Both the position numbers and the translations under genes were made by a program. Source: Trypanosoma brucei (Eukaryota). From it: DNA of 64,000 bases. The stretch lies in the NCBI GenBank assembly GCA_000002445.1, contig AE017150.2, positions 1,129,949-1,193,948 of the forward strand, read 5' to 3'. Below are positions 5,133 to 62,530 of this stretch, piece after piece. Below the pieces are notes generated by a model, which did not search any database, was not told the origin of the DNA, and worked only from the letters and a program-made list of their open reading frames with translations. Numbering within the stretch: the stretch's first letter is position 1; every line of letters begins with the position of its first letter.

Positions 5133-6110
5133 GTGTGTAATTTAGAAACCATGACACGCGCCTCGCTTCCTGTTATTGATGTTTCGCCCCTATTTGGTGG
5201 CGAATCCGCAGAAAAGGAAAGGGTCTCCAAGCAGATTGATAATGCATGCAGGACATGGGGCTTCTTCTACATTGTGGGACATCCGATTCAGCAGGAGCAG
5301 ATTGACAAAGTACTTAAGTTAGCTGATACTTTTTTCTCTCTTCCTATGGAGGAGAAGCTCAAATTGGACGTTCGCAAGGGTAGACTTTATCGTGGTTACA
5401 CTGCCCCTGGAGTAGAGGAAGCTGATGTAGGGAAGGTTTACACGTACGAGACCTTTACGACGGGATACCATCTTCCTAAGCACCATCCAGACGTCATGGC
5501 AGGCAAACCGCTCCGAGGACCGAATATCCACCCCACTCAAGTGAGGGGATGGATGGAGGGTATGGAAGGTCATTACCGCGATATGTGGGCACTTGCGCTT
5601 GTCCTCCTGCGCGCTATGGCGCAAGCTATCGGTTTGCAGGAAGATTTCTTCGACTCCAAGTTTATGGATCCCCTTTGTGAATTGAATATAAAGCACTACG
5701 TTCCCTTATCTCAAACGAAAGAAGAAACTACTTTGCTCATTGAGCACAGCGATTTCGGTGTTATGACGTTACTCTATCAAGACGCTTCAGGTGGCTTGCA
5801 AGTACGTGATAGTTCCGGAGAGCTGATGGATGTGCCACCTATTGAAGGAAGTTTTGTTGTCAACCTTGGAGACATGATGGAGATGTGGACCAATGGCCAA
5901 TACCGTTCCACAAAGCATCGTGTGGTAGCCACAGACAAGGAACGGTACTCCATGCCTTTCTTTTGCAATCCCAATCCGAATGTCATCGTCAAGTGCCTCG
6001 ACAACTGTCATTCGGAGGAGAATCCACCAAGGTACCCTCCAGTGCGGGCTGTTGATTGGATTTTGAAGCGATTCGCGGAGGCATATGGGAAAGATTACTC
6101 AAAAATGTAG
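5133..6110 (+). CDS. 2-oxoglutarate/Fe(II)-dependent dioxygenase, IPNS/ACC-oxidase-like ('iron/ascorbate oxidoreductase family'), copy 1, 325 aa.
   Basis: A 325-aa ORF is present in three near-identical copies. It has the H-x-D iron-binding motif (IEHSDFGVMTLL), a distal His and a 2OG-binding R-x-S signature (WTNGQYRSTKHRVV). This resembles the ACC oxidase/flavonol synthase family motif NGKYKSVxHRV. The N-terminus LPVIDVSPL is typical of the DIOX_N domain. The true start may be the Met at 5151 (MTRASLPV...). A polypyrimidine tract lies upstream. Confidence 0.9.
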   Translation: MCNLETMTRASLPVIDVSPLFGGESAEKERVSKQIDNACRTWGFFYIVGHPIQQEQIDKVLKLADTFFSLPMEEKLKLDVRKGRLYRGYTAPGVEEADVGKVYTYETFTTGYHLPKHHPDVMAGKPLRGPNIHPTQVRGWMEGMEGHYRDMWALALVLLRAMAQAIGLQEDFFDSKFMDPLCELNIKHYVPLSQTKEETTLLIEHSDFGVMTLLYQDASGGLQVRDSSGELMDVPPIEGSFVVNLGDMMEMWTNGQYRSTKHRVVATDKERYSMPFFCNPNPNVIVKCLDNCHSEENPPRYPPVRAVDWILKRFAEAYGKDYSKM

Positions 6111-8503: not shown

Positions 8504-9895
8504 ATGGCAATGCTTGGTTTCGAGTCGACAGCTGAATTTTTTGTCTATCTCACCTTCATCTTTTTTGGGATGTCGGTGATGAATGTGACGAATGCCATTT
8601 ACTCAGTCCCTGATTTTTTTTCTGATTATTATAAATTTGTTAAAAATGAGGAAAAAGCGAAACCTGTCAATGCATCGTTCTGGAAGCACATGTTCACGTA
8701 TTATAATGTTGTTGTGTTTACGATGCAAGTGGTTTTGGAGGCTTTTATGCTCACACCATTGGGCCGACGGATTCCTATTAGTTGGCGTCTCATCTTTGGA
8801 CTCACAATTCCTATGGGTGAGATCATTGCAATTTTAGTGATTCCTGCTGTTGGAGGAAGTGAAAATTGTGCAATTGCAACTGTTATGATGGTTGCTTTTG
8901 TTGGTGGTATTTCCAAAACACTTTGTGACTCCAGCAATGCTGCACTTGCGGGACCTTTTCCGACTAAATTCTATGGTGCCATCGTGTGGGGCCTTTCCGT
9001 GTCCGGTATGATTACTTCATTTATGGCTATTGTCATTAAAGCATCGATGAAGGATAGTTTTGAAAGTAAGAGAGTTCAGTCCCAAATATACTTTGGATTA
9101 GTCATGCTTCTTCAGGTGGTTGCATGCGTGCTTCTTGTCCTTCTGAGGAAAAACCCATATGCCATTAAATATGCTGCAGAATTTAGGTATGCTGCGAGGA
9201 AGGATGGAAAGACAGATGATGGCGAAGATGAAAACGATGCAAAGGGAACAGGGCCAGCAGACGAAGATGGGTATCCTGATGAAAAAGAGAATAAGAATGT
9301 ATTGAATGCTGATATTGATCCAGATAAGATGAAGGATACGGATCAGGTTGAAGGCACTACCAACGTTCAGCAAATGCTTGATGCGAGTGTTATGGTTGTG
9401 GTGAAACGTATTTGGCCCATGTTACTTTCATGCTTTTTTGTGTTCTTTGCGACACTTCTTGTATTTCCTGGTGTATTCTTTGCTGTTAAAGATGGATTAA
9501 ATGTTAAAAATGGATGGTACTTTACTATTGTCATTGCCATGTTCAACTTTGGTGATTTCCTTACGAGGCTTCTTCTTCAGTTCAAGCAGCTGCACCTGTC
9601 TCCACGCATGGTTATGATTGGTTCATTTGCACGTGCACTTTTGATAATTCCGCTTTCATTATGTGCAGCTGGTACCATTCCTGGTATATGGCTTCCCTAC
9701 ACCGTTTCTCTCCTTTGGGGTCTTACGAACGGTTACTTTGGTGGTTTAACAATGATTTATGGACCACGTACGGGATCCCTCACCACAGCGGGTCAACGCT
9801 CTCTTGCTGCCATTTCTACAAATGTATCACTACTTTCGGGTCTCTTTGTTGGTGCTATGTTTGCATTGGCTGTTAAGGAGGGACTTCCTGAATAA
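8504..9895 (+). CDS. Equilibrative nucleoside transporter (ENT family), TbNT2-cluster-like purine nucleoside transporter, paralog 1, 463 aa.
   Basis: The N-terminus MAMLGFESTAEFFVYLTFIFFGMSVMNVTNAIYS is characteristic of T. brucei NT/AT ENT proteins. The ORF has ~11 predicted hydrophobic segments. Between the sixth and seventh of these is a large acidic cytoplasmic loop (RKDGKTDDGEDENDAKGTGPADEDGYPDEKENK). The gene alternates in tandem with the oxidoreductase gene. Confidence 0.92.
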   Translation: MAMLGFESTAEFFVYLTFIFFGMSVMNVTNAIYSVPDFFSDYYKFVKNEEKAKPVNASFWKHMFTYYNVVVFTMQVVLEAFMLTPLGRRIPISWRLIFGLTIPMGEIIAILVIPAVGGSENCAIATVMMVAFVGGISKTLCDSSNAALAGPFPTKFYGAIVWGLSVSGMITSFMAIVIKASMKDSFESKRVQSQIYFGLVMLLQVVACVLLVLLRKNPYAIKYAAEFRYAARKDGKTDDGEDENDAKGTGPADEDGYPDEKENKNVLNADIDPDKMKDTDQVEGTTNVQQMLDASVMVVVKRIWPMLLSCFFVFFATLLVFPGVFFAVKDGLNVKNGWYFTIVIAMFNFGDFLTRLLLQFKQLHLSPRMVMIGSFARALLIIPLSLCAAGTIPGIWLPYTVSLLWGLTNGYFGGLTMIYGPRTGSLTTAGQRSLAAISTNVSLLSGLFVGAMFALAVKEGLPE

Positions 9896-12800
9896 ATTCT
9901 CAATAATTGTAAAAATTACAATTAATACAATTTTTTTTTTTAAAAAAGGCTCCATGCTGGTATCAGCTAGGAGTGGTTTTAACGATGAAAATAATAAAAA
10001 AAATAAAATAGGAAAAGATAAGACAAAAAGGGGTTAATTCTAGGAAAGTGAATAATATGACACATGGCAGCAAGCAAGCATATACGTGCATATGTTATGT
10101 AGTTTTGAGGTAAAAGTGACGCAAAGAAAAGTGTTAGTCGGTTACAAACGCATCGCGCAAAGTACGATACGGCGGAGTTCTGCAAGCTTGTACCATGACA
10201 GTATTTCACTATTTTGTTAACTAACATGGATTTCACCTCTAAGATATGGTTTTAAGGGTAAGGGTTGTAAATTGTGAAATTGTATTGACGATCTCACTCA
10301 TTAGTGCAAACCTTTGATACACTTTACTGTTTACTTTTGATGCAACACAAAATTTGTGTGAAAGAAAGAGCTATACTTCAGCTTGTAGCGTTTTCAGTGC
10401 GCTTATTTTCATCACATGTGTGCAAACGAGTAAAAAAATGATGTGAACCCGAAAAGTCTTATTACTTTTCCTTTTATTCCCATGACCGTGCTATGGTGTT
10501 ACGGATATGTGTGTAAGTGAGGAGTGTTGTGTGGATTTGCTTCTATTATTGTTTACTTGCCTTTGGTTGTATACCACACACCTGCTTATGTTTTCCCATA
10601 TGTGTACGCCTGTAGATAACAGTGTGGGAGTTTACTCCGTGACGTTTTCTCACAAATGTCTAGAGGCAAATGATTAAAGTAATTTTTTTGTTTAATGTAT
10701 ATCTGTATATGTTTGTCTGTTTATGTGTATGTGTGTTTGTGTGTACGTATTTGACATGTTCAGCAATATGTTTAGATTATCCAATTATATCTTTTCTTTT
10801 CTATTTTCTTATATTGTTTACTTGTCACTGTTTTACTTTCAGGAAGGTATATAAATTAAGCTGAAGCAACGTTATGTTCATTTGTGTATTAGACACATGA
10901 GTTTATTTCCAAGCAGATGATATATGCGTGAACGCGTGTGTTTAACTTTATAATGTCTTATACTAAAGATGTATCCAAATATTGCCATGCTAATACCTTG
11001 TGAGGCTTATTGTACTTTTGTGTTGTGAAATAGTCAAGTAGTTGCTGTGTAACTTTTGTGTTATTTTTTAGATAATGTGTGTTTTCTTAGTCTAATATCT
11101 TTAATAAATGATTTGACAGCTGCTTGCATGTGAGGGTTTCATTCCTCTTCTTTGCTTAAAAATGTGCAGAGACTGGAATCCTTTATATAAATGAAGTGAA
11201 ATGCATAACTTATAAATTGCATTTCCACTTTCACATATTGTAATATTATTGAGTATCAAAAGGGAAATGATGAATCATGTAATAGGAAGTCATTCACAAC
11301 ATGGTAATAGAGCAATTCATCTTCGAAGCTATAACGGAACAAGCTTTTTATTGTAATGCTTATTTGTGGAATAGCTCATGCTTTATGAATGCTTGAGGAT
11401 GGAGCGTTGTAATATTTTTAAAAGTAATATAAGTAAACTAGCAAACAAATTATCGTTTTTGTTTCTTCCTTCATAATCACTATAAGCTAAGCTATTAGTC
11501 TATTAGCAATAATTAATATGACTACTAGTAGGGCAAAAGACGAGAAATAAGAAATTAATTTATAGGAATGATTTGATAGTTTGAAGGGTGTGTAATTATC
11601 ATGTCTCTTATACTAATGACGGATTATGCTAGAGAGAATGTGATTTGTGAGGTATTTGTGATTCTCTGAAGTGATACAGCGGTGCATGGGAACTCGTCGT
11701 AAGGATAAAAAAAATAAATAATGTGCGGTATGTAATTTTTAAACCTCACATTGATGAGGTTGTGAGGCATAAAATAACTCTTGCCATTTTCCCAACGTGG
11801 CCAACAGTCCAAGAACTAGTGTAGTACTGCAGTAATGATACAGTGATGTTAAATTGAAAGCGAAAAATAAATATGAATGGCGTAAAAAGGGGGAAGGAAG
11901 TAGTGATGGTGGCGTAATCGATTGTTACTGTGTTTCATGACAAATTCTCTACATTCAATGATTCTAGAGGAAACAAGTACGTACCATAGCAGTGGTTACT
12001 GTGTTTCCATAAGGAGTAAGTTATATTTACTGGAAAATGTGGTATCAAGAAATGTTATATGTGAGTAGCAATATACCTCAACACAGAGATGTACGCTCAT
12101 GTAATCACTACACACAAAAAAGTTCTGAAAGTTTTGAACGCGTTGAGCGGATTGATACGTCTCTCCAACCTTGAGTTGAAATGCGCAACCCTTGAGTGTT
12201 GAGTTGGGATACATATTTTTAGATGTCACTAGAGCTTGATGTGTGGAATGAAACTCTAGAGCTCATGCATATGGCTAATGCTTACCGTGGGCAAAACTTG
12301 TCGATGTTGGTACGATGATATGCGATTTGTTGGCAGTGATAGCTTTCAGCGGATTGTATGGTAGGTGGTGTTTTTTTTTCTGCCACAGGCGGCAATGGCA
12401 GTGTTGACTAATTTTTGAATTACTCAGAAGGGAAATTTCTCTGTTTAAGTGATGATCATGTTGAATCGTTGATAAAATCAACGGAATTATCCATAATTAG
12501 TTTTAATTGGAGGAAAATGAAATAGGAGAACTGCCCACGTTGATGTGTTGCGGACAAAGAAAAGTGAGTGGTATGCATATTTTAGAACCCAGTATTTTTC
12601 TTTCTCATCTGATGTGCTTCCCTAATGTTTGGATCTGAGGAATACCTAATGATGATTAATGCGGTTAGAGTTAGGGCATTCTTTTGTGATGCTGAATATT
12701 GTATCTATTGATAACAACAATCGATACGCCATACTCAAACATAAATGAATTCTCACACATAAACGCTGCTTCTGGTATCGCCAACCGTTATGTTCAATAG

Positions 12801-15656
12801 CTCGTTACGTGGAGCATGAGTGGATGTGACAGTGAATGTTCCTTCATCAAAGACAGCTGCGTGATGCTTAACTCAGAATATGTCAATGGTATCGTATTAT
12901 AGCCAAGTTTAAGTTTAATAATTAATAATAGTGATGTGTGTGGGAAAAGTGAGATTGTACCATTGCAGTGGGTGAACCGTTTCGTTTGGGACGTATTGCA
13001 TTCTGCTGTGTGATTAAGCGCCGAGTTTTTCTGCAAATATACGTATGATATTTAGTTGCTGTCGACCCGCCGAATCGGTGTGTGGTTAGTGTAAAGCATT
13101 ATGCGAACATAGGTTAGTAATGCACAGTGTTTAGAAGGCGAATGTGCCATTCAAGTAACCTTGATTTATACGTAACGTTTCTTACCTTTTTGTGGTGTTT
13201 CACTGTGATCATTCCGAGCGATGTAGTTTATGCTGTTAATGTCACTCAAAGCAATCTGATATTTTTTATGATTGTCACTGCAGCATCTCTTTCTACAAGT
13301 TTCTTTACTTTTTTTAAAAAAAGGCATCATTATAAAGCTTGAAAAAGATGTCATAGCTCTTTAACCCTTTACACCCTCTCAAAATATGCCATGAAAAATG
13401 TAAAACTTGCCAGTTGTTTTCACGGTTGCGGCTCTGTAAGAAAGTGAATATTTCACACTTTGGAGAGCTAATTTTGCTACGAAGTGGTTAAGGCCACCTA
13501 TTCGCAGTGGCAGCCCTTGAGGTGAAAACCACATATACTAACGTATCGACAGCAGTAATGAGGACATGTGTCAGCATGGGACGTATGTTTCACTACAGTG
13601 TCACAGAGGTTTTAAAGCACAGTGGGCACGGGAGGTGAATTAGTTGTAGATCTCTTTGTGCCTTAACCTTTCGTGCTATTCTTTTTTTTCTCTCTGGAAC
13701 TGATACAGTCTGGGGAGGCAGTGTGCTCAAGCTTTGCTAAGTTTTTGGAAGCAGGACTCACGACCCATCCCCCACTGTGTAATGTATGATGACCAGATTT
13801 GTTCTGAGGGAGCGTCAAACCAATCGTGTACGATGGGCGTGTAGAACAGGAAGTAAAGGAAGGTGTGTTATTATATGCAAATGCAGATGAAATACTGCTC
13901 ACAACACCTAAAGAAAGCAAAGTCACTCCTGACGGTTTTGATCATTTTATCAGTGTATCACAATCTAATCACCTTTGCTGCTGTAGAAGGCTCATTGCAT
14001 AGTTGTGTGTATTTTGCTTTCAGAGCTTGAGACAACCAGTCACTTACCGACCACTGTGGAGAGTGATCACGATGATGTCGTCGGCTTTCCTGTATGGAAG
14101 GAAGTATCATTTTGCTCTTCTGCTCGCGTAATTGTGTTCCTTTGTGTATCCGTGGAGTAGCGTTGTTATTGAAAAGAGGGATGATGAGTAGAATGGCGAC
14201 TCAACACTTTTTCTTGTACTGAAGAAATACCAAGAGTTTTTTTCAGCAGGACAGACCTGCGGTGGCCATGTGGTTTAGATACCTCAGGGACAACTTCCAT
14301 ATTGCACAAGGAGAACTTCTGCGTCTTGAGGTGGCATGGCGCATGCTAGTGTTGGGATATCTGTACATTGGAATAGCAAGGTCTTCCAGGGAAGGAAGAG
14401 GGATACATAAGCCAGTGAAGGGCTGCACAGGTGCTGTGTCAGGTGTGAAGGTGATAGATGGCTCTAAGGAAGTGTCAGATGTGATTATACTCGGCAAGAG
14501 GTTGCTGCTCAAGGTTTTGATTATATACTTCCCGAGACGATCAAATGTCGCGTAACTTACGTTGGAAGAAAGTTTAGGGGGAGCAATGGGATGAGGGAAG
14601 TCCCCACTGGATTGTTTGGTCGGATATACAACATGATAAGTGGAAGGTTTGTTGAAGAAGAACGCAGGTACACCACATCCAATAGGTGAGAAGGCAGTAA
14701 TGGCCGGGTGCATTTGCTGTGAGTGAAAACTTTAACAATGGATGCTAAGTAGTTAATGTTGAAATGTTTTAAAACGTTAGAGAAAGGAATGACTAAATGG
14801 TTGTAGGTACGTAAATCGTGGGACGCACTAAGGGAAAATGATGTAGTGGTGCGATGGAGCAAGGGACTCGAATACCCAATATATTACAAGAAACGCTACT
14901 GTTGAGTTGGGTGCAGAAACAAGTGAGAGACAAGCTGTTTGGGTAGCTGAAGTATCGACCACTGGGAAAGGTGAAGCGTTGGCAGGAAGGATCATCAAAT
15001 CTCATCCTCATTTCATTTAGTATGACTGAGGAAGCGAGGGAAGGAAAGGAATGGTTGTGAAGGGAGCAAGTAGTGAAAGCAAAATAGTAGAAGCAATTGT
15101 GGCGTCAAATAAGATGTGAAGGGTAGCGGTAGTACAAATAGAAAAGCAAAACCAAGTTAAAAAAATTGGTTGCCGACGTCAAGGAAGCGGGGACAGGTGA
15201 ATAAAATTATGTAATTCGTACCAGTTTAAATGTATTAAAATGAACTCTGATGTGTGTGATTTGCTACTGTTAACTCGGTGAACATCGGAACTGATACGTT
15301 GCTCTGTGCTATTGTAGCAGTGCACTCCAGTGTGGTATCACTGGAACTATAAAACCTTATATTTCTTATGGCGTTGTATCAGTGCTTCCACTATGGCATC
15401 ATTGTGTTAACGTGAGCAGTATATTGTCACGTAGTGGACAACATGTCAACTAGTTTGTTTAAACTGTTGCTCTCTTGACAGTTTGTAGTTCGTATCACTC
15501 TGTTGTTTGCTTTTCTTGTCTTGTTTATTCCCCTGAGATATTACTGGTAAGTCCTCCTTTATCCTAATTTTTGTATTTACGCCGGCTGTTGAAGCGGAAC
15601 CCTTCCAATTATTAGGCACAAAACGGTACATATATATATATTACAAGAAAGCAACA

Positions 15657-16634
15657 GTGTGTAATTTAGAAACCATGACACGCGCCTCGCTTCCTGTTAT
15701 TGATGTTTCGCCCCTATTTGGTGGCGAATCCGCAGAAAAGGAAAGGGTCTCCAAGCAGATTGATAATGCATGCAGGACATGGGGCTTCTTCTACATTGTG
15801 GGACATCCGATTCAGCAGGAGCAGATTGACAAAGTACTTAAGTTAGCTGATACTTTTTTCTCTCTTCCTATGGAGGAGAAGCTCAAATTGGACGTTCGCA
15901 AGGGTAGACTTTATCGTGGTTACACTGCCCCTGGAGTAGAGGAAGCTGATGTAGGGAAGGTTTACACGTACGAGACCTTTACGACGGGATACCATCTTCC
16001 TAAGCACCATCCAGACGTCATGGCAGGCAAACCGCTCCGAGGACCGAATATCCACCCCACTCAAGTGAGGGGATGGATGGAGGGTATGGAAGGTCATTAC
16101 CGCGATATGTGGGCACTTGCGCTTGTCCTCCTGCGCGCTATGGCGCAAGCTATCGGTTTGCAGGAAGATTTCTTCGACTCCAAGTTTATGGATCCCCTTT
16201 GTGAATTGAATATAAAGCACTACGTTCCCTTATCTCAAACGAAAGAAGAAACTACTTTGCTCATTGAGCACAGCGATTTCGGTGTTATGACGTTACTCTA
16301 TCAAGACGCTTCAGGTGGCTTGCAAGTACGTGATAGTTCCGGAGAGCTGATGGATGTGCCACCTGTTGAAGGAAGTTTTGTTGTCAACCTTGGAGACATG
16401 ATGGAGATGTGGACCAATGGCCAATACCGTTCCACAAAGCATCGTGTGGTAGCCACAGACAAGGAACGGTACTCCATGCCTTTCTTTTGCAATCCCAATC
16501 CGAATGTCATCGTCAAGTGCCTCGACAACTGTCACTCGGAAGAGAATCCACCAAGGTACCCTCCAGTGCGGGCTGTTGATTGGGTTTTGAAGCGGTTCGC
16601 GGAGGCATATGGGAAAGATTACTCAAAAATGTAG
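15657..16634 (+). CDS. 2OG/Fe(II) dioxygenase, copy 2, 325 aa. It differs from copy 1 at I227V and I312V.
   Basis: Same ORF as 5133-6110 with the same motifs. Confidence 0.9.
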   Translation: MCNLETMTRASLPVIDVSPLFGGESAEKERVSKQIDNACRTWGFFYIVGHPIQQEQIDKVLKLADTFFSLPMEEKLKLDVRKGRLYRGYTAPGVEEADVGKVYTYETFTTGYHLPKHHPDVMAGKPLRGPNIHPTQVRGWMEGMEGHYRDMWALALVLLRAMAQAIGLQEDFFDSKFMDPLCELNIKHYVPLSQTKEETTLLIEHSDFGVMTLLYQDASGGLQVRDSSGELMDVPPVEGSFVVNLGDMMEMWTNGQYRSTKHRVVATDKERYSMPFFCNPNPNVIVKCLDNCHSEENPPRYPPVRAVDWVLKRFAEAYGKDYSKM

Positions 16635-19025: not shown

Positions 19026-20426
19026 ATGGCAATGCTTGGTTTCGAGTCGACAGCTGAATTTTTTGTCTATCTCACCTTCATCTTTTTTGGGATGTCGGTG
19101 ATGAATGTGACGAATGCTATTTACTCTATTCCTGACTATTTTTCAGTGTATTATCAATTTGTTAAAAATGATGAAAAAGCGAAACCTGTCAATGCATCGT
19201 TCTGGGAGCACATGTTCACGTATTATAATGTTGTTGTGTTTACGATGCAAGTGGTTTTGGAGGCTTTTATGCTAACACCATTGGGCCGACGCATTCCTAT
19301 TAGTTGGCGTCTCATCTTTGGACTCACAATTCCTATGGGTGAGATCATTGCAATTTTAGTGATCCCTGAAGTTGGAGGAAGTGAAGCTGGTGCGATGGCA
19401 ACTGTTATGATAGTTGCTTTTGTTGGTGGTATTTCCAAAACACTTTGTGACTCCAGCAATGCTGCACTTGCGGGACCGTTTCCGACTAAATTCTATGGTG
19501 CCATCGTGTGGGGTCTTGCAGTCTCTGGCCTAATCACTTCATTTATGTCTGTTGTCATCAAAGCAGCGATGGAATACAGCTTCAAAAGCAGACGAGTTCA
19601 GTCCCAAATATACTTTGGATTAGTCATGCTTCTTCAGGTGGTTGCATGCGTGCTTCTTGTCCTTCTGAGGAAAAACCCATATGCCATTAAATATGCTGCA
19701 GAATTTAGGTATGCTGCGAGGAAGGATGGAAAGACAGATGATGGCGAAGATGAAAACGATGCAAAGGGAACAGGGCCAGCAGACGAAGATGGGTATCCTG
19801 ATGAAAAAGAGAATAAGAATGTATTGAATGCTGATATTGATCCAGATAAGATGAAGGATACGGATCAGGTTGAAGGCACTACCAACGCTCAGCAAATGCT
19901 TGATGCGAGTGTTATGGTTGTGGTGAAACGTATTTGGCCCATGTTACTTTCATGCTTCTTTGTGTTCTTTGCGACACTTCTCATCTTCCCTGGTGTATTC
20001 TTTGCTGTTAAAGATAAAACAACGGTAAAAAACTTTTGGTATTATACAATTATTGTTGCCATGTTCAACTTGGGTGATTTCTTGTCTCGTCTGGTGCTGC
20101 AGTTCAAGCGGTTGCATGTGTCTCCGCGCATGGTTATGATTGGTTCATTTGCACGTGCGTTGCTGATAATTCCTCTTGCCCTTTGCGTTCCTGGTACCAT
20201 TCCTGGTGTATGGCTTCCCTACACCGTTTCTCTCCTTTGGGGTCTCACAAATGGTTACTTTGGTGGCCTTTCAATGATTTATGGACCACGTACGGGATCC
20301 CTCACCACAGCGGGTCAACGCTCTCTTGCTGCTATTTGCATTAATGTGGCTCTTTTACTCGGTCTCTTTGCTGGTGCTATGTTTGCATTGGCTGTTAAGG
20401 AGGGACTTCCGAAGGAAAAAAAGTAG
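19026..20426 (+). CDS. ENT nucleoside transporter, paralog 2, 466 aa.
   Basis: Same architecture as 8504-9895. It has many scattered substitutions relative to paralog 1, e.g. YSIPDYFSVYYQF and PEVGGSEAGAMATVMIV. Its C-terminus, ...GLPKEKK, is distinct. Confidence 0.92.
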   Translation: MAMLGFESTAEFFVYLTFIFFGMSVMNVTNAIYSIPDYFSVYYQFVKNDEKAKPVNASFWEHMFTYYNVVVFTMQVVLEAFMLTPLGRRIPISWRLIFGLTIPMGEIIAILVIPEVGGSEAGAMATVMIVAFVGGISKTLCDSSNAALAGPFPTKFYGAIVWGLAVSGLITSFMSVVIKAAMEYSFKSRRVQSQIYFGLVMLLQVVACVLLVLLRKNPYAIKYAAEFRYAARKDGKTDDGEDENDAKGTGPADEDGYPDEKENKNVLNADIDPDKMKDTDQVEGTTNAQQMLDASVMVVVKRIWPMLLSCFFVFFATLLIFPGVFFAVKDKTTVKNFWYYTIIVAMFNLGDFLSRLVLQFKRLHVSPRMVMIGSFARALLIIPLALCVPGTIPGVWLPYTVSLLWGLTNGYFGGLSMIYGPRTGSLTTAGQRSLAAICINVALLLGLFAGAMFALAVKEGLPKEKK

Positions 20427-23400
20427 GAGTTTTTAAAACATTAAATAATGTCTAAACTTTTTTTAAATTAATAAAATAAAAAAATAAACTCCATGCTGGT
20501 ATCAGCTAGGAGTGGTTTTAACGATGAAAATAATAAAAAAAATAAAATAGGAAAAGATAAGACAAAAAGGGGTTAATTCTAGGAAAGTGAATAATATGAC
20601 TCATGGCAGCAAGCAAGCATATACGTGCATATGTTATGTAGTTTTGAGGTAAAAGTGACGCAAAGAAAAGTGTTAGTCGGTTACAAACGCATCGCGCAAA
20701 GTACGATACGGCGGAGTTCTGCAAGCTTGTACCATGACAGTATTTCACTATTTTGTTAACTAACATGGATTTCACCTCTAAGATATGGTTTTAAGGGTAA
20801 GGGTTGTAAATTGTGAAATTGTATTGACGATCTCACTCATTAGTGCAAACCTTTGATACACTTTACTGTTTACTTTTGATGCAACACAAAATTTGTGTGA
20901 AAGAAAGAGCTATACTTCAGCTTGTAGCGTTTTCAGTGCGCTTATTTTCATCACATGTGTGCAAACGAGTAAAAAAATGATGTGAACCCGAAAAGTCTTA
21001 TTACTTTTCCTTTTATTCCCATGACCGTGCTATGGTGTTACGGATATGTGTGTAAGTGAGGAGTGTTGTGTGGATTTGCTTCTATTATTGTTTACTTGCC
21101 TTTGGTTGTATACCACACACCTGCTTATGTTTTCCCATATGTGTACGCCTGTAGATAACAGTGTGGGAGTTTACTCCGTGACGTTTTCTCACAAATGTCT
21201 AGAGGCAAATGATTAAAGTAATTTTTTTGTTTAATGTATATCTGTATATGTTTGTCTGTTTATGTGTATGTGTGTTTGTGTGTACGTATTTGACATGTTC
21301 AGCAATATGTTTAGATTATCCAATTATATCTTTTCTTTTCTATTTTCTTATATTGTTTACTTGTCACTGTTTTACTTTCAGGAAGGTATATAAATTAAGC
21401 TGAAGCAACGTTATGTTCATTTGTGTATTAGACACATGAGTTTATTTCCAAGCAGATGATATATGCGTGAACGCGTGTGTTTAACTTTATAATGTCTTAT
21501 ACTAAAGATGTATCCAAATATTGCCATGCTAATACCTTGTGAGGCTTATTGTACTTTTGTGTTGTGAAATAGTCAAGTAGTTGCTGTGTAACTTTTGTGT
21601 TATTTTTTAGATAATGTGTGTTTTCTTAGTCTAATATCTTTAATAAATGATTTGACAGCTGCTTGCATGTGAGGGTTTCATTCCTCTTCTTTGCTTAAAA
21701 ATGTGCAGAGACTGGAATCCTTTATATAAATGAAGTGAAATGCATAACTTATAAATTGCATTTCCACTTTCACATATTGTAATATTATTGAGTATCAAAA
21801 GGGAAATGATGAATCATGTAATAGGAAGTCATTCACAACATGGTAATAGAGCAATTCATCTTCGAAGCTATAACGGAACAAGCTTTTTATTGTAATGCTT
21901 ATTTGTGGAATAGCTCATGCTTTATGAATGCTTGAGGATGGAGCGTTGTAATATTTTTAAAAGTAATATAAGTAAACTAGCAAACAAATTATCGTTTTTG
22001 TTTCTTCCTTCATAATCACTATAAGCTAAGCTATTAGTCTATTAGCAATAATTAATATGACTACTAGTAGGGCAAAAGACGAGAAATAAGAAATTAATTT
22101 ATAGGAATGATTTGATAGTTTGAAGGGTGTGTAATTATCATGTCTCTTATACTAATGACGGATTATGCTAGAGAGAATGTGATTTGTGAGGTATTTGTGA
22201 TTCTCTGAAGTGATACAGCGGTGCATGGGAACTCGTCGTAAGGATAAAAAAAATAAATAATGTGCGGTATGTAATTTTTAAACCTCACATTGATGAGGTT
22301 GTGAGGCATAAAATAACTCTTGCCATTTTCCCAACGTGGCCAACAGTCCAAGAACTAGTGTAGTACTGCAGTAATGATACAGTGATGTTAAATTGAAAGC
22401 GAAAAATAAATATGAATGGCGTAAAAAGGGGGAAGGAAGTAGTGATGGTGGCGTAATCGATTGTTACTGTGTTTCATGACAAATTCTCTACATTCAATGA
22501 TTCTAGAGGAAACAAGTACGTACCATAGCAGTGGTTACTGTGTTTCCATAAGGAGTAAGTTATATTTACTGGAAAATGTGGTATTAAGAAATGTTATATG
22601 TGAGTAGCAATATACCTCAACACAGAGATGTACGCTCATGTAATCACTACACACAAAAAAGTTCTGAAAGTTTTGAACGCGTTGAGCGGATTGATGCGTC
22701 TCTCCAACCTTGAGTTGAAATGCGCAACCCTTGAGTGTTGAGTTGGGATACATATTTTTAGATGTCACTAGAGCTTGATGTGTGGAATGAAACTCTAGAG
22801 CTCATGCATATGGCTAATGCTTACCGTGGGCAAAACTTGTCGATGTTGGTACGATGATATGCGATTTGTTGGCAGTGATAGCTTTCAGCGGATTGTATGG
22901 TAGGTGGTGTTTTTTTTTCTGCCACAGGCGGCAATGGCAGTGTTGACTAATTTTTGAATTACTCAGAAGGGAAATTTCTCTGTTTAAGTGATGATCATGT
23001 TGAATCGTTGATAAAATCAACGGAATTATCCATAAGTTAGTTTTAATTGGAGGAAAATGAAATAGGAGAACTGCCCACGTTGATGTGTTGCGGACAAAGA
23101 AAAGTGAGTGGTATGCATATTTTAGAACCCAGTATTTTTCTTTCTCATCTGATGTGCTTCCCTAATGTTTGGATCTGAGGAATACCTAATGATGATTAAT
23201 GCGGTTAGAGTTAGGGCATTCTTTTGTGATGCTGAATATTGTATCTATTGATAACAACAATCGATACGCCATACTCAAACATAAATGAATTCTCACACAT
23301 AAACGCTGCTTCTGGTATCGCCAACCGTTATGTTCAATAGCTCGTTACGTGGAGCATGAGTGGATGTGACAGTGAATGTTCCTTCATCAAAGACAGCTGC

Positions 23401-29571: not shown

Positions 29572-30960
29572 ATGGCAATGCTTGGTTTCGAGTCGACAGC
29601 TGAATTTTTTGTCTATCTCACCTTCATCTTTTTTGGGATGTCGGTGATGAATGTGACGAATGCCATTTACTCCAATTATAATTTTTTTTCAGAGTATTAT
29701 AAGTTTGTTAAAAAGCAGGAAAAAGCCGAACCTGAGAATGAATCGTTCTGGAAGCACATGTTCACGTATTATAATGTTGTTGTGTTTACGATGCAAGTGG
29801 TTTTGGAGGCTTTTATGCTAACACCATTGGGCCGACGCATTCCTATTAGTTGGCGTCTCATCTTTGGACTCACTATTCCCATGGTAGAAATCATCGTTAT
29901 TTTAGTGATCCCTGCTGTTGGAGGAAGTGAAAATGGTGCAATTGCAACTATGATGATGGTTGCTTTTGTTGGTGGTATTTCCAAAACACTTTGTGACTCC
30001 AGCAATGCTGCACTTGCGGGACCTTTTCCGACTAAATTCTATGGTGCCATCGTGTGGGGACTTGCCATATCCGGACTGATGACCTCATTTTTGGCTATTG
30101 TTATACAAGCATCGATGGACAGCAGTTTTACAAGTAAAAATACCCAATCCCAAATATACTTTGGATTAGTCATGCTTCTTCAGGTGGTTGCATGCGTGCT
30201 TCTTGTCCTTCTGAGGAAAAACCCATATGCCATTAAATATGCTGCAGAATTTAGGTATGCTGCGAGGAAGGATGGAGTAACTGGTGATCGCGCAGATGGT
30301 GAATTTGATGCAAAGGGAACAGGGCCAGCAGACGAGAATAGATATCCTGATGAAAAAGAGAATAAGAATGTATTGAATGCTGATATTGATCCAGATGATA
30401 TGAGGGATACAGATCAGGTTGAAGGCACTACCAACGCTCAGCAAATGCTTGATGCGAGTGTTATGGTTGTGGTGAAACGCATTTGGCCTATGTTGGTCGC
30501 TTGCTTCTTTGTGTTCTTTGCGACACTTCTGGTGTTCCCTGGTGTATTTATAGCGGCGAAGACAGGCGATACTAGTGGTTGGTACTTTACTGTTGTCGTT
30601 GCCATGTTCAACTTGGGTGATTTCTTGTCTCGTCTGGTGCTGCAGTTCAAGCAATTGCATGTGTCTCCGCGCATGGTTATGATTGGTTCATTTGCACGTG
30701 CGTTGCTGATAATTCCACTTTCGCTATGTGCTGCAGGAACCGTTACCGGTGTATGGCTTCCTTATATTGTTTCTCTCCTTTGGGGTCTTACGAATGGTTA
30801 CTTTGGTGGCCTTTCAATGATCTATGGACCACGTACGGGATCCCTCACCACAGCGGGTCAACGCTCTCTTGCTGCTATTTGCATTAATGTGGCTCTTCTT
30901 ATGGGACTTTTTGTTGGTGCTATGTTTGCATTGGCTGTTAAGGAGGGACTTCCTAAATAA
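29572..30960 (+). CDS. ENT nucleoside transporter, paralog 3, 462 aa. This is the most divergent copy, with a different large loop: RKDGVTGDRADGEFDAKGTGPADENRYPDE.
   Basis: It shares the N-terminus and the TM framework. Its extracellular loop 1 (YSNYNFFSEYYKFVKKQEKAEPENESF) is distinct, as is the TM7-8 region (AAKTGDTSGWYFT). Its 3' flank diverges from that of the other units. Confidence 0.9.
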   Translation: MAMLGFESTAEFFVYLTFIFFGMSVMNVTNAIYSNYNFFSEYYKFVKKQEKAEPENESFWKHMFTYYNVVVFTMQVVLEAFMLTPLGRRIPISWRLIFGLTIPMVEIIVILVIPAVGGSENGAIATMMMVAFVGGISKTLCDSSNAALAGPFPTKFYGAIVWGLAISGLMTSFLAIVIQASMDSSFTSKNTQSQIYFGLVMLLQVVACVLLVLLRKNPYAIKYAAEFRYAARKDGVTGDRADGEFDAKGTGPADENRYPDEKENKNVLNADIDPDDMRDTDQVEGTTNAQQMLDASVMVVVKRIWPMLVACFFVFFATLLVFPGVFIAAKTGDTSGWYFTVVVAMFNLGDFLSRLVLQFKQLHVSPRMVMIGSFARALLIIPLSLCAAGTVTGVWLPYIVSLLWGLTNGYFGGLSMIYGPRTGSLTTAGQRSLAAICINVALLMGLFVGAMFALAVKEGLPK

Positions 30961-31030
30961 ATGCTCAAAAATTGTAAATAAACCATTTAATGTCGATCTT
31001 TTAATAAAATGAAAAATGAACCCCATGCTG

Positions 31031-31880
31031 GTATCAGCTAGGAGTGGTTTGAATAATGCAACAAATAAGGGTTTGAAGAGAAGATATATAAGTTAAAAAA
31101 TAAGGAGAAATGCCAGATAATGAATTAGATGACATGTAAAAGGAAGCAAGCGTATGCGTGTACAATTTAAGCTGTTTGGAGGGGGGACTGTAGTAAACGT
31201 GTATATACGTGTATGATTATCTTTTGTCTTTCGCACAGTGTTTCCAGACATAAATTCTCCGTCTTCTGGGGAATTCTGTGAAGGAAGAAAAATGACGGTT
31301 TGTTGGAGTTGTGTAGTTATTATTATTAAACTTTCATCATGTTTTCATTGACTCCCTACAAATAACATAATTTGCTTCAACAATTTGTTTAGCTTTTGTA
31401 ATTTTAAAAGAAGGAAATGATGATGCATTTCCATTCATTGATTTAAATTTAATTTTTGTTCCATCTTGAACTAATTTCCTCTTTTTAAAAAACAAAAATC
31501 AGCAAAGAGATGAGAATAAAATATACAAAAGGTAGAAAGCTGAATGAACTACAAAAAAAATATTAAATAAAACACATATACATATTTATAATATGTGTTC
31601 TTTCTGCACAAAAAAAATTGTATTAGTTACAATAATAAAAATAGTGAAGCCAGCAGGAAGTGATAATTACAATTTTCAACTCATCCCCTCTTGCCTATCT
31701 CACTATTCCCTTTCTTTTTCAGAGAAAATAACTAAAAAAGTAAGTAAACAAGAGAGAGGATAGTAATAAATAAAATGAAATCAACAATACAATATTTTAA
31801 GGGAAAATTTGATTTTACTTTTTCTTTACTTTTCACTGTTTCTGTTTCTTGATTACTTTTACTTCCTTTCATTTCTTTCT
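31031..31880 (+). other. A unique ~850 bp AT-rich segment downstream of transporter paralog 3. It replaces the ~435 bp found at the equivalent position in units A and B (10040-10475); the unit C equivalent is ~20580-21015.
   Basis: After the conserved motif at 31023-31050 the sequence has no counterpart in the other units. Homology resumes at ~31880 (ttattcccatgaccgtgctatggtgttacgg, matching 10475 and 21014). The segment is probably the paralog-specific 3'UTR. Confidence 0.7.
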
Positions 31881-34800
31881 TTTTATTCCCATGACCGTGC
31901 TATGGTGTTACGGATATGTGTGTAAGTGAGGAGTGTTGTGTGGATTTGCTTCTATTATTGTTTACTTGCCTTTGGTTGTATACCACACACCTGCTTATGT
32001 TTTCCCATATGTGTACGCCTGTAGATAACAGTGTGGGAGTTTACTCCGTGACGTTTTCTCATAAATGTCTAGAGGCAAATGATTAAAGTAATTTTTTTGT
32101 TTAATGTATATCTGTATATGTTTGTCTGTTTATGTGTATGTGTGTTTGTGTGTACGTATTTGACATGTTCAGCAATATGTTTAGATTATCCAATTATATC
32201 TTTTCTTTTCTATTTTCTTATATTGTTTACTTGTCACTGTTTTACTTTCAGGAAGGTATATAAATTAAGCTGAAGCAACGTTATGTTCATTTGTGTATTA
32301 GACACATGAGTTTATTTCCAAGCAGATGATATATGCGTGAACGCGTGTGTTTAACTTTATAATGTCTTATACTAAAGATGTATCCAAATATTGCCATGCT
32401 AATACCTTGTGAGGCTTATTGTACTTTTGTGTTGTGAAATAGTCAAGTAGTTGCTGTGTAACTTTTGTGTTATTTTTTAGATAATGTGTGTTTTCTTAGT
32501 CTAATATCTTTAATAAATGATTTGACAGCTGCTTGCATGTGAGGGTTTCATTCCTCTTCTTTGCTTAAAAATGTGCAGAGACTGGAATCCTTTATATAAA
32601 TGAAGTGAAATGCATAACTTATAAATTGCATTTCCACTTTCACATATTGTAATATTATTGAGTATCAAAAGGGAAATGATGAATCATGTAATAGGAAGTC
32701 ATTCACAACATGGTAATAGAGCAATTCATCTTCGAAGCTATCACGGAACAAGCTTTTTATTGTAATGCTTATTTGTGGAATAGCTCATGCTTTATGAATG
32801 CTTGAGGATGGAGCGTTGTAACATTTTTAAAAGTAATATAAGTAAACTAGCAACCAAATTATCGTTTTTGTTTCTTCCTTCATAATCACTATAAGCTAAG
32901 CTATTAGTCTATTAGCAATAATTAATATGACTACTAGTAGGGCAAAAGATGAGAAATAAGAAATTAATTTATAGGAATGATTTGATAGTTTGAAGGGTGT
33001 GTAATTATCATGTCTCTTATACTAATGACGGATTATGCTAGAGAGAATGTGATTTGTGAGGTATTTGTGATTCTCTGAAGTGATACAGCGGTGCATGGGA
33101 ACTCGTCGTAAGGATAAAAAAAATAAATAATGTGCGGTATGTAATTTTTAAACCTCACATTGATGAGGTTGTGAGGCATAAAATAACTCTTGCCATTTTC
33201 CCAACGTGGCCAACAGTCCAAGAACTAGTGTAGTACTGCAGTAATGATACAGTGATGTTAAATTGAAAGCGAAAAATAAATATGAATGGCGTAAAAAGGG
33301 GGAAGGAAGTAGTGATGGTGGCGTAATCGATTGTTACTGTGTTTCATGACAAATTCTCTACATTCAATGATTCTAGAGGAAACAAGTACGTACCATAGCA
33401 GTGGTTACTGTGTTTCCATAAGGAGTAAGTTATATTTACTGGAAAATGTGGTATTAAGAAATGTTATATGTGAGTAGCAATATACCTCAACACAGAGATG
33501 TACGCTCATGTAATCACTACACACAAAAAAGTTCTGAAAGTTTTGAACGCGTTGAGCGGATTGATACGTCTCTCCAACCTTGAGTTGAAATGCGCAACCC
33601 TTGAGTGTTGAGTTGGGATACATATTTTTAGATGTCACTAGAGCTTGATGTGTGGAATGAAACTCTAGAGCTCATGCATATGGCTAATGCTTACCGTGGG
33701 CAAAACTTGTCGATGTTGGTACGATGATATGCGATTTGTTGGCAGTGATAGCTTTCAGCGGATTGTATGGTAGGTGGTGTTTTTTTTTCTGCCACAGGCG
33801 GCAATGGCAGTGTTGACTAATTTTTGAATTACTCAGAAGGGAAATTTCTCTGTTTAAGTGATGATCATGTTGAATCGTTGATAAAATCAACGGAATTATC
33901 CATAAGTTAGTTTTAATTGGAGGAAAATGAAATAGGAGAACTGCCCACGTTGATGTGTTGCGGACAAAGAAAAGTGAGTGGTATGCATATTTTAGAACCC
34001 AGTATTTTTCTTTCTCATCTGATGTGCTTCCCTAATGTTTGGATCTGAGGAATACCTAATGATGATTAATGCGGTTAGAGTTAGGGCATTCTTTTGTGAT
34101 GCTGAATATTGTATCTATTGATAACAACAATCGATACGCCATACTCAAACATAAATGAATTCTCACACATAAACGCTGCTTCTGGTATCGCCAACCGTTA
34201 TGTTCAATAGCTCGTTACGTGGAGCATGAGTGGATGTGACAGTGAATGTTCCTTCATCAAAGACAGCTGCGTGATGCTTAACTCAGAATATGTCAATGGT
34301 ATCGTATTATAGCCAAGTTTAAGTTTAATAATAATAGTGATGTGTGTGGGAAAAGTGAGATTGTACCATTGCAGTGGGTGAACCGTTTCGTTTGGGACGT
34401 ATTGCATTCTGCTGTGTGATTAAGCGCCGAGTTTTTCTGCAAATATACGTATGATATTTAGTTGCTGTCGACCCGCCGAATCGGTGTGTGGTTAGTGTAA
34501 AGCATTATGCGAACATAGGTTAGTAATGCACAGTGTTTAGAAGGCGAATGTGCCATTCAAGTAACCTTGATTTATACGTAACGTTTCTTACCTTTTTGTG
34601 GTGTTTCACTGTGATCATTCCGAGCGATGTAGTTTATGCTGTTAATGTCACTCAAAGCAATCTGATATTTTTTATGATTGTCACTGCAGCATCTCTTTCT
34701 ATAAGTTTCTTTACTTTTTTTTAAAAAAGGCATCATTATAAAGCTTGAAAAAGATGTCATAGCTCTTTAACCCTTTACACCCTCTCAAAATATGCCATGA

Positions 34801-62329: not shown

Positions 62330-62530
<201 letters not shown>

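What the first reader, a model, noticed from the sequence alone, without database searches (positions are those of the whole stretch)
9952..9979. Conserved 28-nt motif in the 3' flank of all three transporter genes despite divergent surroundings
The motif CCATGCTGGTATCAGCTAGGAGTGGTTT occurs ~55-65 nt after each transporter stop codon, at 9952-9979, 20491-20518 and 31023-31050. In paralog 3 the sequence between the stop and the motif is different, and the sequence after the motif is different as well. The motif is nonetheless retained intact. It contains a small GCTG-GTAT-CAGC hairpin. These features make it a candidate 3'UTR cis-element, for example for purine-responsive or stage-specific control. 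Such control is known for other T. brucei NT genes.
Basis: seen in the sequence. Interest (0 to 1): 0.5.

Follow-up and report, generated by a model that had tools for sequence, protein, structure and literature searches.

The report
Conserved hairpin in trypanosome transporter 3'UTRs
A 31-base sequence that can fold into a small hairpin sits just after the stop codon of every adenosine-transporter gene examined in a Trypanosoma brucei tandem array and stays nearly unchanged while its surroundings have diverged, which makes it a reasonable but untested candidate mRNA control element.

Summary
The 28-mer occurs exactly three times, 56-64 nt after the stop codons of Tb927.2.6240, .6280 and .6320. 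These are NT-array genes at the right end of T. b. brucei TREU927 chromosome 2. It lies inside the annotated 3'UTRs.

Versions with 2-3 mismatches follow other array paralogues in T. b. gambiense and T. b. equiperdum. More distant NT paralogues and T. vivax NT genes lack it, and so does the rest of 171 kb searched.

Across four paralogue lineages it is the best-conserved stretch in the otherwise divergent first ~570 nt of the UTR (0.91 pair identity against a mean of 0.47). However, it is no better conserved than synonymous sites of the concertedly evolving coding region (p = 0.14).

The real unit is 31 nt, starting 3 nt earlier. It folds as a two-tier hairpin. One closing pair covaries, two changes break pairs, and covariation is not significant.

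It is not the NT8 purine-response element and matches no Rfam family. The best reading (about 0.5) is a binding site for an RNA-binding protein that co-regulates the array's mRNAs. The main rival (about 0.35) is a functionless island kept by concerted evolution. Interest is modest.

The parts
9949..9979 (+). 31-nt conserved element in the 3'UTR of Tb927.2.6240 (GCTCCATGCTGGTATCAGCTAGGAGTGGTTT). The predicted two-tier hairpin is 9949-9974 and the GGTTT tail is 9975-9979.
   Evidence: Exact motif. Fold of the 56-nt context: -14.4 kcal/mol, z = -3.4. Covariance model score 54.3 bits.
20488..20518 (+). 31-nt conserved element in the 3'UTR of Tb927.2.6280 (ACTCC...). The closing pair is A-U.
   Evidence: z = -3.8; 56.2 bits.
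31020..31050 (+). 31-nt conserved element in the 3'UTR of Tb927.2.6320 (ACCCC...). A U-to-C change breaks one outer-stem pair.
   Evidence: z = -1.2; 53.7 bits.
8504..9895 (+). ENT-family nucleoside transporter CDS, copy 1 (Tb927.2.6240, 463 aa).
   Evidence: Pfam PF01733, E = 1e-30. 100% identical to the TREU927 'adenosine transporter 2'.
19026..20426 (+). ENT-family nucleoside transporter CDS, copy 2 (Tb927.2.6280, 466 aa, with a C-terminal KEKK extension).
29572..30960 (+). ENT-family nucleoside transporter CDS, copy 3 (Tb927.2.6320, 462 aa).
9896..9948 (+). AT-rich (89% A+T) spacer between stop codon and element. It is divergent among all paralogues.
   Evidence: (19/81 invariant columns).
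9980..10466 (+). 3'UTR segment of the copy-1/copy-2 type. It is repeated at 20519-21005, and at 84.5% identity at window 1-317 for the upstream gene. In copy 3 it is replaced by 31051-31875.
   Evidence: Self-BLAST, BLAST against loci.
31051..31875 (+). 3'UTR segment of the copy-3 type. Its distal 540 nt is 80-86% identical to the flanks of the gambiense and equiperdum paralogues, so it is the commoner type.
30961..32102 (+). Annotated 3'UTR of Tb927.2.6320. It ends about 95 nt upstream of a polypyrimidine tract plus AG at about 32198-32253.
   Evidence: Supplementary Data 1 of PMC11405848 and the sequence itself.

Best explanation
The element is a short cis-acting RNA signal in the stop-proximal 3'UTR of the P1-type nucleoside transporter mRNAs. 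These are the genes of the NT2-NT7 array on T. brucei chromosome 2.

In the mRNA it is predicted to fold as a 26-nt two-tier hairpin followed by a GGU(U/G)U tail. The lower stem is (G/A)CUCC paired with GGAG(U/C). Next comes a 2x2 internal loop, then an upper stem GCUG:CAGC capped by a GUAU tetraloop.

I infer that a sequence- and shape-specific RNA-binding protein docks on it and gives all array paralogues a common input on mRNA stability or translation. The rest of each proximal 3'UTR is free to diverge.

Positive bloodstream-form activity maps to UTR fragments that lack the element, so its effect is more likely repressive or conditional. Examples would be lower expression in insect stages or a response to nutrient state.

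Shown here: presence, position inside the annotated UTR, restriction to the array, and conservation relative to its flanks. Inferred: RNA folding in vivo, protein binding, and the direction of the effect.
For: - There is one copy per array gene, 53-84 nt after the stop, in TREU927 (3 genes), T. b. gambiense (2) and T. b. equiperdum (1).
- There are no other copies in 171 kb. The six known copies score 51-56 bits and the next best hit scores 12.5 bits.
- Across four independent paralogue lineages it is the single best-conserved 28-nt window of the first ~570 nt of 3'UTR: 0.911 against a mean of 0.47 (sd 0.146), with the runner-up at 0.70.
- 24-27 of 31 columns are invariant, against 19/81 and 21/79 in the adjacent flanks.
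- Non-repetitive flank sequence has also diverged, so the contrast is not only a matter of AT-rich slippage.
- It lies inside the annotated 3'UTRs.
- The consensus fold has 9 pairs. The closing pair is A-U, G-U or G-C in different paralogues. The G-U form is compatible only with the sense-strand RNA.
- Fold z-scores are -3.4 to -3.8 in three of five contexts.
- The array mRNAs are co-regulated, at 8-21 fold higher levels in bloodstream than in procyclic forms (PMC2771046).
- Discrete 3'UTR elements controlling transporter mRNAs are an established theme in trypanosomatids (PMC4066783, PMC8053114, PMC13569496).
Against: - The element is no better conserved than fourfold-degenerate sites of the adjacent CDS: 27/31 against 140/183 invariant, Fisher p = 0.14. 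It is less conserved than the 5' flank, at 481/503. Concerted evolution could therefore account for its identity.
- Covariation is not significant, with 181 of 500 shuffles doing as well, and two substitutions break outer-stem pairs.
- Only five distinct sequences exist, all from one species complex.
- The element is absent from T. vivax NT genes and from the 66% and 55% identical T. brucei-group paralogues.
- UTR fragments without the element already act positively in the reporter screen.
- I found no experiment that addresses the element.
Confidence: 0.5

Rival explanations
1. Functionless island. The array evolves in concert by gene conversion, and the 31-mer is a normal-complexity patch that has been carried along with the coding region, or simply mutates more slowly. 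The AT-rich, slippage-prone sequence on either side has decayed. On this view nothing binds it.
For: The element's conservation equals that of synonymous sites (p = 0.14) and is below that of the 5' flank. The flanking spacer is 80-90% A+T with many indels. Homology tracts between units begin or end at the element, as expected for a patch caught in conversion tracts. Covariation is not significant.
Against: A conversion tract running from the CDS to the element would also homogenise the 53-81 nt spacer, which has only 19/81 invariant columns and shows many substitutions as well as indels. Conservation does not fall off steadily with distance from the stop codon but rises again at the element. 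Non-repetitive sequence 100-250 nt downstream has diverged to about 0.5-0.7. The same 31 nt are retained in four lineages that carry lineage-specific substitutions, so this is not one recent copying event.
Confidence: 0.35
2. DNA-level role. On this view the short identical block acts as the homology anchor where recombination or gene-conversion tracts in the array are resolved. It would then be perpetuated because it is used, not because of any function in the mRNA.
For: The near-identical tract shared by copies 1 and 2 starts at the element's left edge, and the alignable tract shared by copies 1 and 3 stops at its right edge, at 9979/31050.
Against: Tract end-points can only be placed within identical sequence, so any conserved island will look like a junction. 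This makes the observation uninformative. A 28-31 bp block is short for efficient homologous recombination (my own knowledge of length dependence in T. brucei, not tested here). Nothing about the sequence suggests a recombination signal.
Confidence: 0.08
3. The element is a copy of the purine-response element (PuRE) of NT8/LdNT3. On this view PuREBP1/2 binds it and represses the mRNA when purines are abundant.
For: It sits in the 3'UTR of purine transporter genes and forms a stem-loop. Its lower stem pairs a pyrimidine run (CUCC) with a purine run (GGAG), which loosely recalls the published description.
Against: The PuRE is described as a 33-35-nt hairpin with a purine:pyrimidine stem and a large loop holding two conserved blocks, located 204-365 nt into the NT8 UTR. 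This element has a 4-nt loop and a mixed upper stem, and lies 53-84 nt from the stop. The authors report that no PuREBP1/2-bound transcript other than NT8 contains a PuRE, and that PuREBP1 knock-down raised only NT8 and AATP6 mRNAs. The array genes are not in the late-log regulated list.
Confidence: 0.03
4. The ATG inside the motif starts a small downstream ORF of 22-27 codons that is translated.
For: ATG CTG GTA TCA GCT AGG AGT GGT ... is open for 22-27 codons in four of the five versions (read from the sequences).
Against: The start is GTG in the second gambiense paralogue. The peptide tails are unrelated between paralogues. Conservation stops after 8-9 codons. ORFs in 3'UTRs are not normally translated.
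Confidence: 0.01

Closest known systems
PuRE, the purine-response stem-loop of T. brucei NT8 and Leishmania LdNT3 (PMC4066783, PMC8053114, bioRxiv 10.1101/2020.01.26.920504)
   Same: Both are short discrete stem-loops in the 3'UTR of a tandemly repeated purine transporter gene. Both are present in every paralogue of their array and are conserved while the surrounding UTR diverges.
   Different: The architecture differs: a 4-nt loop and two-tier stem here, against a large loop with two conserved blocks on a purine:pyrimidine stem. The position differs: 53-84 nt from the stop, against more than 200 nt. The gene family branch differs: P1 nucleoside carriers against a nucleobase carrier. The PuRE is conserved from Leishmania to T. 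brucei, whereas this element was found only in the T. brucei group. No functional data exist for this element.
Polypyrimidine-tract and UE1 elements of Leishmania LdNT1/LdNT2 nucleoside transporter 3'UTRs (bioRxiv 10.1101/2020.10.15.336420)
   Same: These are cis-elements in the 3'UTRs of the Leishmania relatives of these nucleoside transporters, which are about 43% identical at protein level.
   Different: They are 48-76 nt polypyrimidine tracts plus an upstream element, not a GC-balanced hairpin.
Procyclin EP1 16-mer and 26-mer 3'UTR elements, and the GU-repeat motif of ZIP3 3'UTRs (listed in PMC4066783; PMC13569496)
   Same: They are examples of short, defined 3'UTR elements that set stage- or nutrient-dependent mRNA fate in T. 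brucei.
   Different: The sequences are unrelated. The GU-repeat acts as several copies per UTR, whereas this element is a single copy.

Membership tests
PuRE (NT8/LdNT3 purine-response element) | A 33-35 nt hairpin with a purine strand paired to a pyrimidine strand, and a large loop carrying two conserved sequence blocks. | tested here: not met
   The predicted fold has a 4-nt GUAU loop, a mixed GCUG:CAGC upper stem, a 2x2 internal loop and a 5-bp lower stem. I compared it with the verbal descriptions. The PuRE sequence is printed only in figures, so no direct alignment was possible.
PuRE (NT8/LdNT3 purine-response element) | Found in the 3'UTR of NT8/LdNT3 orthologues, and reported absent from other transcripts. 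| tested here: not met
   The host genes are the chromosome 2 array genes Tb927.2.6240/6280/6320, not NT8 on chromosome 11. The authors state that no other PuREBP1/2-bound transcript contains a PuRE.
PuRE (NT8/LdNT3 purine-response element) | Bound by PuREBP1/2 and confers purine-dependent repression. | not testable with these tools
   This needs RIP or a reporter assay. Indirect evidence: PuREBP1 depletion raised only NT8 and AATP6 mRNAs.
Functional 3'UTR cis-regulatory stem-loop (generic kind) | Lies within the mature mRNA 3'UTR. | tested here: met
   It lies 53-64 nt after the stop. The annotated UTRs are 1142-3047 nt long. The annotated end for copy 3 has the expected downstream polypyrimidine tract plus AG. 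This rests on annotation; I did not inspect poly(A) reads.
Functional 3'UTR cis-regulatory stem-loop (generic kind) | Conserved beyond the neutral expectation. | tested here: inconclusive
   It is far above its flanks: 0.91 against 0.47, and 27/31 against 19/81 and 21/79 invariant columns. It is not above fourfold-degenerate CDS sites in this concertedly evolving array (p = 0.14).
Functional 3'UTR cis-regulatory stem-loop (generic kind) | Base-pairing supported by compensatory changes. | tested here: inconclusive
   One pair has A-U, G-U and G-C forms, two pairs are each broken in one lineage, and six pairs are invariant. 181 of 500 shuffles reach the observed score.
Functional 3'UTR cis-regulatory stem-loop (generic kind) | Necessary and/or sufficient for regulation in a reporter. 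| not testable with these tools
   No experiment was found. Five of the six array-gene fragments in the positive-selection sheet of the reporter-screen supplement (PMC11405848) exclude the element.
Any Rfam family | Match to a curated covariance model. | tested here: not met
   The only hit in 9700-10700 at E <= 10 is a Bacillus sRNA model at 17.5 bits against a gathering score of 100.

The most novel reading that the evidence does not exclude
The hairpin is the docking site of a dedicated and so far unidentified regulator, or is itself a ligand-sensitive RNA. It would be distinct from the PuRE/PuREBP system and would tune the whole P1 adenosine-transporter array to purine or adenosine supply or to life-cycle stage. 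That would give trypanosomes a second, independent RNA regulon for purine uptake.
Probability: 0.1. Interest if true: 0.65.

Novelty: new member of a known kind. Interest (0 to 1): 0.3.

Why it matters
Trypanosomes control genes almost entirely after transcription, yet only a handful of discrete cis-elements are defined. The P1 carriers encoded by this array import adenosine, and also nucleoside-analogue drug candidates such as tubercidin and cordycepin derivatives.

A shared element in their mRNAs would offer a handle on how uptake capacity is set between life-cycle stages. It would also serve as a compact bait for finding the responsible RNA-binding protein. If it proves inert, it is a useful example of how concerted evolution in tandem arrays can mimic a conserved motif.

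Tried and rejected
- **Rfam:** a scan of 9700-10700 gave nothing meaningful.
- **Metagenome collection:** an exact-pattern scan for TGCTGGTATCAGCYAGGAGYGG gave 0 hits.
- **Literature:** full-text string searches for the motif and its reverse complement returned only unrelated antibody, C. elegans and miRNA papers.
- **TREU927 paralogues:** I tried to fetch Tb927.2.6150/6200/6220 and an off-array paralogue (P0007) through P0001, P0002, P0003, P0006 and P0007. None is on record in the position index, so those 3' flanks were not seen.
- **T. congolense:** its P1-type transporter (P0008) has no contig on record, so the most informative outgroup could not be tested.
- **T. vivax:** I fetched the oxygenase locus in case the NT-oxygenase arrangement was syntenic. 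There are no NT genes within 10 kb. Two T. vivax NT loci lack the element.
- **PuRE sequence:** it appears only in figures, so only its described architecture could be compared.
- **Long-range pairing:** between the element and the rest of the mRNA there is no complementary stretch of 8 nt or more, against about 1 expected by chance.
- **Small ORF:** an ORF starting at the motif's ATG was rejected because the start is GTG in one paralogue.
- **Cryptic trans-splice acceptor after the upstream T-run:** rejected because the T-run is short and not conserved between copies.

Full report
**Where the window comes from**

The three 462-466 aa ORFs at 8504-9895, 19026-20426 and 29572-30960 are equilibrative nucleoside transporters (Pfam PF01733). 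They alternate with 2OG-Fe(II) oxygenase ORFs and are followed by VSG genes on the minus strand. Copy 1 is 100% identical to 'adenosine transporter 2' of T. b. brucei TREU927, on a 1,193,948-bp chromosome.

Supplementary Data 1 of PMC11405848 lists the annotated 3'UTRs of Tb927.2.6240.6280 and .6320 as starting at 1139844, 1150375 and 1160909. Those spacings, 10531 and 10534 nt, equal the spacings of the three stop codons in the window. The window is therefore the last 64 kb of chromosome 2, and window coordinate = chromosome coordinate - 1129948. The three genes are the last three of the array, which PMC2771046 describes as NT2-NT7 lying next to the subtelomeric VSG cluster.

**The observation**

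- The 28-mer occurs exactly three times, on the + strand, at the stated coordinates. There are no further matches at up to 3 mismatches, and none in shuffles.
- It starts 56, 64 and 62 nt after the three stop codons.
- The window holds a tandem unit of about 10.5 kb: 3049-20518 matches 13561-31050 at 96.3%. Copies 1 and 2 are therefore not independent witnesses.
- After the motif, copies 1 and 2 differ at 1 of 487 nt.
- The informative comparisons are the spacer and copy 3. The spacer is 80-90% A+T and is only 38/70, 39/59 and 41/72 identical between copies.
- The 3' side of copy 3 is 65/105 identical over the first 100 nt and then loses alignment. Homology resumes at 31876 = 10467.

**Extension to other paralogues**

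TREU927 contigs could not be fetched, but T. b. gambiense and T. b. equiperdum could.

- L001 (gambiense chromosome 2) has CGATGCTGGTATCAGCTAGGAGTGGTGT 83 nt after one array gene, and CCGTGCTGGTATCAGCCAGGAGCGGTTT 71 nt after the next.
- L002 (equiperdum, first gene of the array) has the first of these variants.
- The element is absent from a 66% identical paralogue of T. equiperdum (L003), a 55% identical transporter paralogue of gambiense annotated only as 'adenosine transporter, putative' (L005), and two T. vivax NT loci (L004, L007). This holds at up to 8 mismatches.
- A covariance model built from the six copies finds only those six (51-56 bits) in 171 kb. The next best hit scores 12.5 bits.
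- In the sequence available, then, there is one element per array gene and none elsewhere.

**How conserved is it, and compared with what**

I aligned four independent paralogue lineages (copy 1, copy 3, and gambiense A and B) from -500 nt to +1600 nt around the gene.

| Region | Conservation |
|---|---|
| 5' flank | 93-100% per 30-column window; 481/503 columns invariant |
| CDS | mosaic, 63-100% |
| First ~570 nt of 3'UTR | mean pair identity 0.47 (sd 0.146 for 28-nt windows) |
| Window 9950-9977 (the element) | 0.911, the best in that zone; runner-up 0.70 |
| Element, invariant columns | 27/31 (24/31 with gambiense B) |
| Spacer, invariant columns | 19/81 |
| Next 60 nt, invariant columns | 21/79 |
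| Fourfold-degenerate CDS sites | 140/183 invariant |

The non-repetitive sequence 100-250 nt downstream has also diverged. The island is therefore not simply the only non-repetitive patch in the zone.

The caveat is important. The element (27/31 invariant) is not significantly more conserved than fourfold-degenerate sites (140/183, Fisher p = 0.14), and it is less conserved than the 5' flank. The array evolves in concert, so identity as such is cheap here. What needs explaining is why identity returns at the element after a spacer that has decayed.

**Structure**

Its parts are:

- a lower stem, (G/A)CUCC paired with GGAG(U/C);
- a 2x2 internal loop;
- an upper stem, GCUG paired with CAGC;
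- a GUAU tetraloop;
- a GGU(U/G)U tail.

In 56-nt contexts the fold z-scores are -3.4, -3.8 and -3.8 for copy 1, copy 2 and gambiense B. They are only -1.2 and -1.7 for copy 3 and gambiense A.

RNAalifold recovers the same 9 pairs. The closing pair is G-U in copy 1, A-U in copy 2, copy 3 and gambiense A, and G-C in gambiense B. The G-U form works only on the sense RNA. Copy 3 has a U-to-C change and gambiense A a C-to-G change, and each breaks one lower-stem pair. The upper hairpin, AGGAG and GG are invariant.

Formal covariation is not significant, with 181 of 500 shuffles doing as well. The signal is therefore mainly sequence conservation. The structure is plausible but unproven.

**Position in the transcript**

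The annotated 3'UTRs map to window 9896-12933, 20427-23473 and 30961-32102. The element is therefore well inside them. The annotated end of copy 3 lies about 95 nt upstream of a polypyrimidine tract followed by AG, which is the usual trypanosome arrangement. The same tract occurs in copies 1 and 2 near 10790-10840, so a UTR isoform of about 800 nt is possible there. Either way the element is included.

**Functional context from the literature**

- The array mRNAs are 8-21 fold more abundant in cultured bloodstream forms than in procyclic forms (PMC2771046).
- In the genome-scale 3'UTR reporter screen, all six array genes gave positively acting fragments. Five of the six fragments start 468-587 nt after the stop and so lack the element. 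High bloodstream-form expression therefore does not need it.
- The array genes are not among the mRNAs changing at least 2-fold in late-log, purine-depleted procyclics.
- Tb927.2.6320 mRNA was enriched 32-fold in a ZFP3 mRNP, though from low counts.
- The known purine-response element of NT8 is described as a 35-nt hairpin with a purine:pyrimidine stem and a large loop holding two conserved blocks. It lies more than 200 nt into the UTR and is reported to be unique to NT8/LdNT3. This element does not fit that description.
- The Leishmania LdNT1/LdNT2 elements are polypyrimidine tracts.
- Rfam has nothing, and the motif string does not appear in any trypanosome paper in the library.

**Interpretation**

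My best reading, at about 0.5, is a protein-binding hairpin that gives the array mRNAs a common post-transcriptional input. Its effect is more likely repressive or conditional than activating.

The main rival, at about 0.35, is a functionless island maintained by concerted evolution and lower local mutability. The evidence against that rival is the decayed spacer between the CDS and the element, and the divergence of other non-repetitive UTR sequence. The evidence for it is the lack of excess conservation over synonymous sites and the lack of significant covariation.

Three other readings are unlikely:

- A role as a recombination anchor is weakly suggested by tract boundaries at both edges of the element. 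Any conserved island would look like that.
- Membership of the PuRE family does not fit, as set out above.
- A small ORF starting at the internal ATG is ruled out by the GTG in gambiense B.

**Verdict**

The feature is real and correctly located. It remains an untested candidate of a familiar kind, and its conservation has an ordinary alternative explanation. Interest is modest.

Noticed in passing
window 5151-6110, 15675-16634, 26220-27179: The 2OG-Fe(II) oxygenase genes that alternate with the transporters are about 50% identical over 97% of their length to hundreds of Pseudomonas oxygenases (E about 1e-98). That is as close as they are to their Leishmania and Phytomonas orthologues (51-55%). 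It looks like an old bacterium-to-kinetoplastid gene transfer.
   Followed up: no
window 9980-10466 and 20519-21005 versus 31051-31875; also window 1-317: Two alternative versions of the proximal 3'UTR exist in the array. The version in Tb927.2.6240 and .6280 (and .6220, at 84.5%) was not found in the gambiense or equiperdum flanks examined. The version in Tb927.2.6320 is 80-86% identical to those flanks. Tb927.2.6320 also shows a smaller bloodstream/procyclic mRNA ratio, 8.4-fold against about 20-fold.
   Followed up: partly
window 8600-8689, 9197-9253, 9464-9523 (and the matching positions in the other copies): The transporter coding regions are mosaics. Short patches of 63-77% identity are embedded in sequence that is 93-100% identical across paralogues. 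This suggests patchy gene conversion or diversifying selection on particular protein segments.
   Followed up: no
window 10715-10750 and 32125-32160: A GU-rich repeat (TGTTTATGTGTATGTGTGTTTGTGTGTACG) lies in the shared distal part of the intergenic region, just upstream of a polypyrimidine tract plus AG. GU-repeat motifs were recently implicated in ZNK1-dependent decay of ZIP3 mRNA (PMC13569496).
   Followed up: no
window 20412-20426: Copy 2 (Tb927.2.6280) ends ...EGLPKEKK, three to four residues longer than the other paralogues (...EGLPE or ...EGLPK).
   Followed up: no
L001 10001-11376: The second array gene of T. b. gambiense spans 1376 nt, which is not a multiple of three, and does not translate to its database protein. 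A straight translation has six stops. It is either a pseudogene or an assembly frameshift. The element downstream of it is nevertheless retained, with the best-paired stem of all copies.
   Followed up: no
window 62405-62521: An (ATT)39 microsatellite lies near the end of the chromosome assembly.
   Followed up: no
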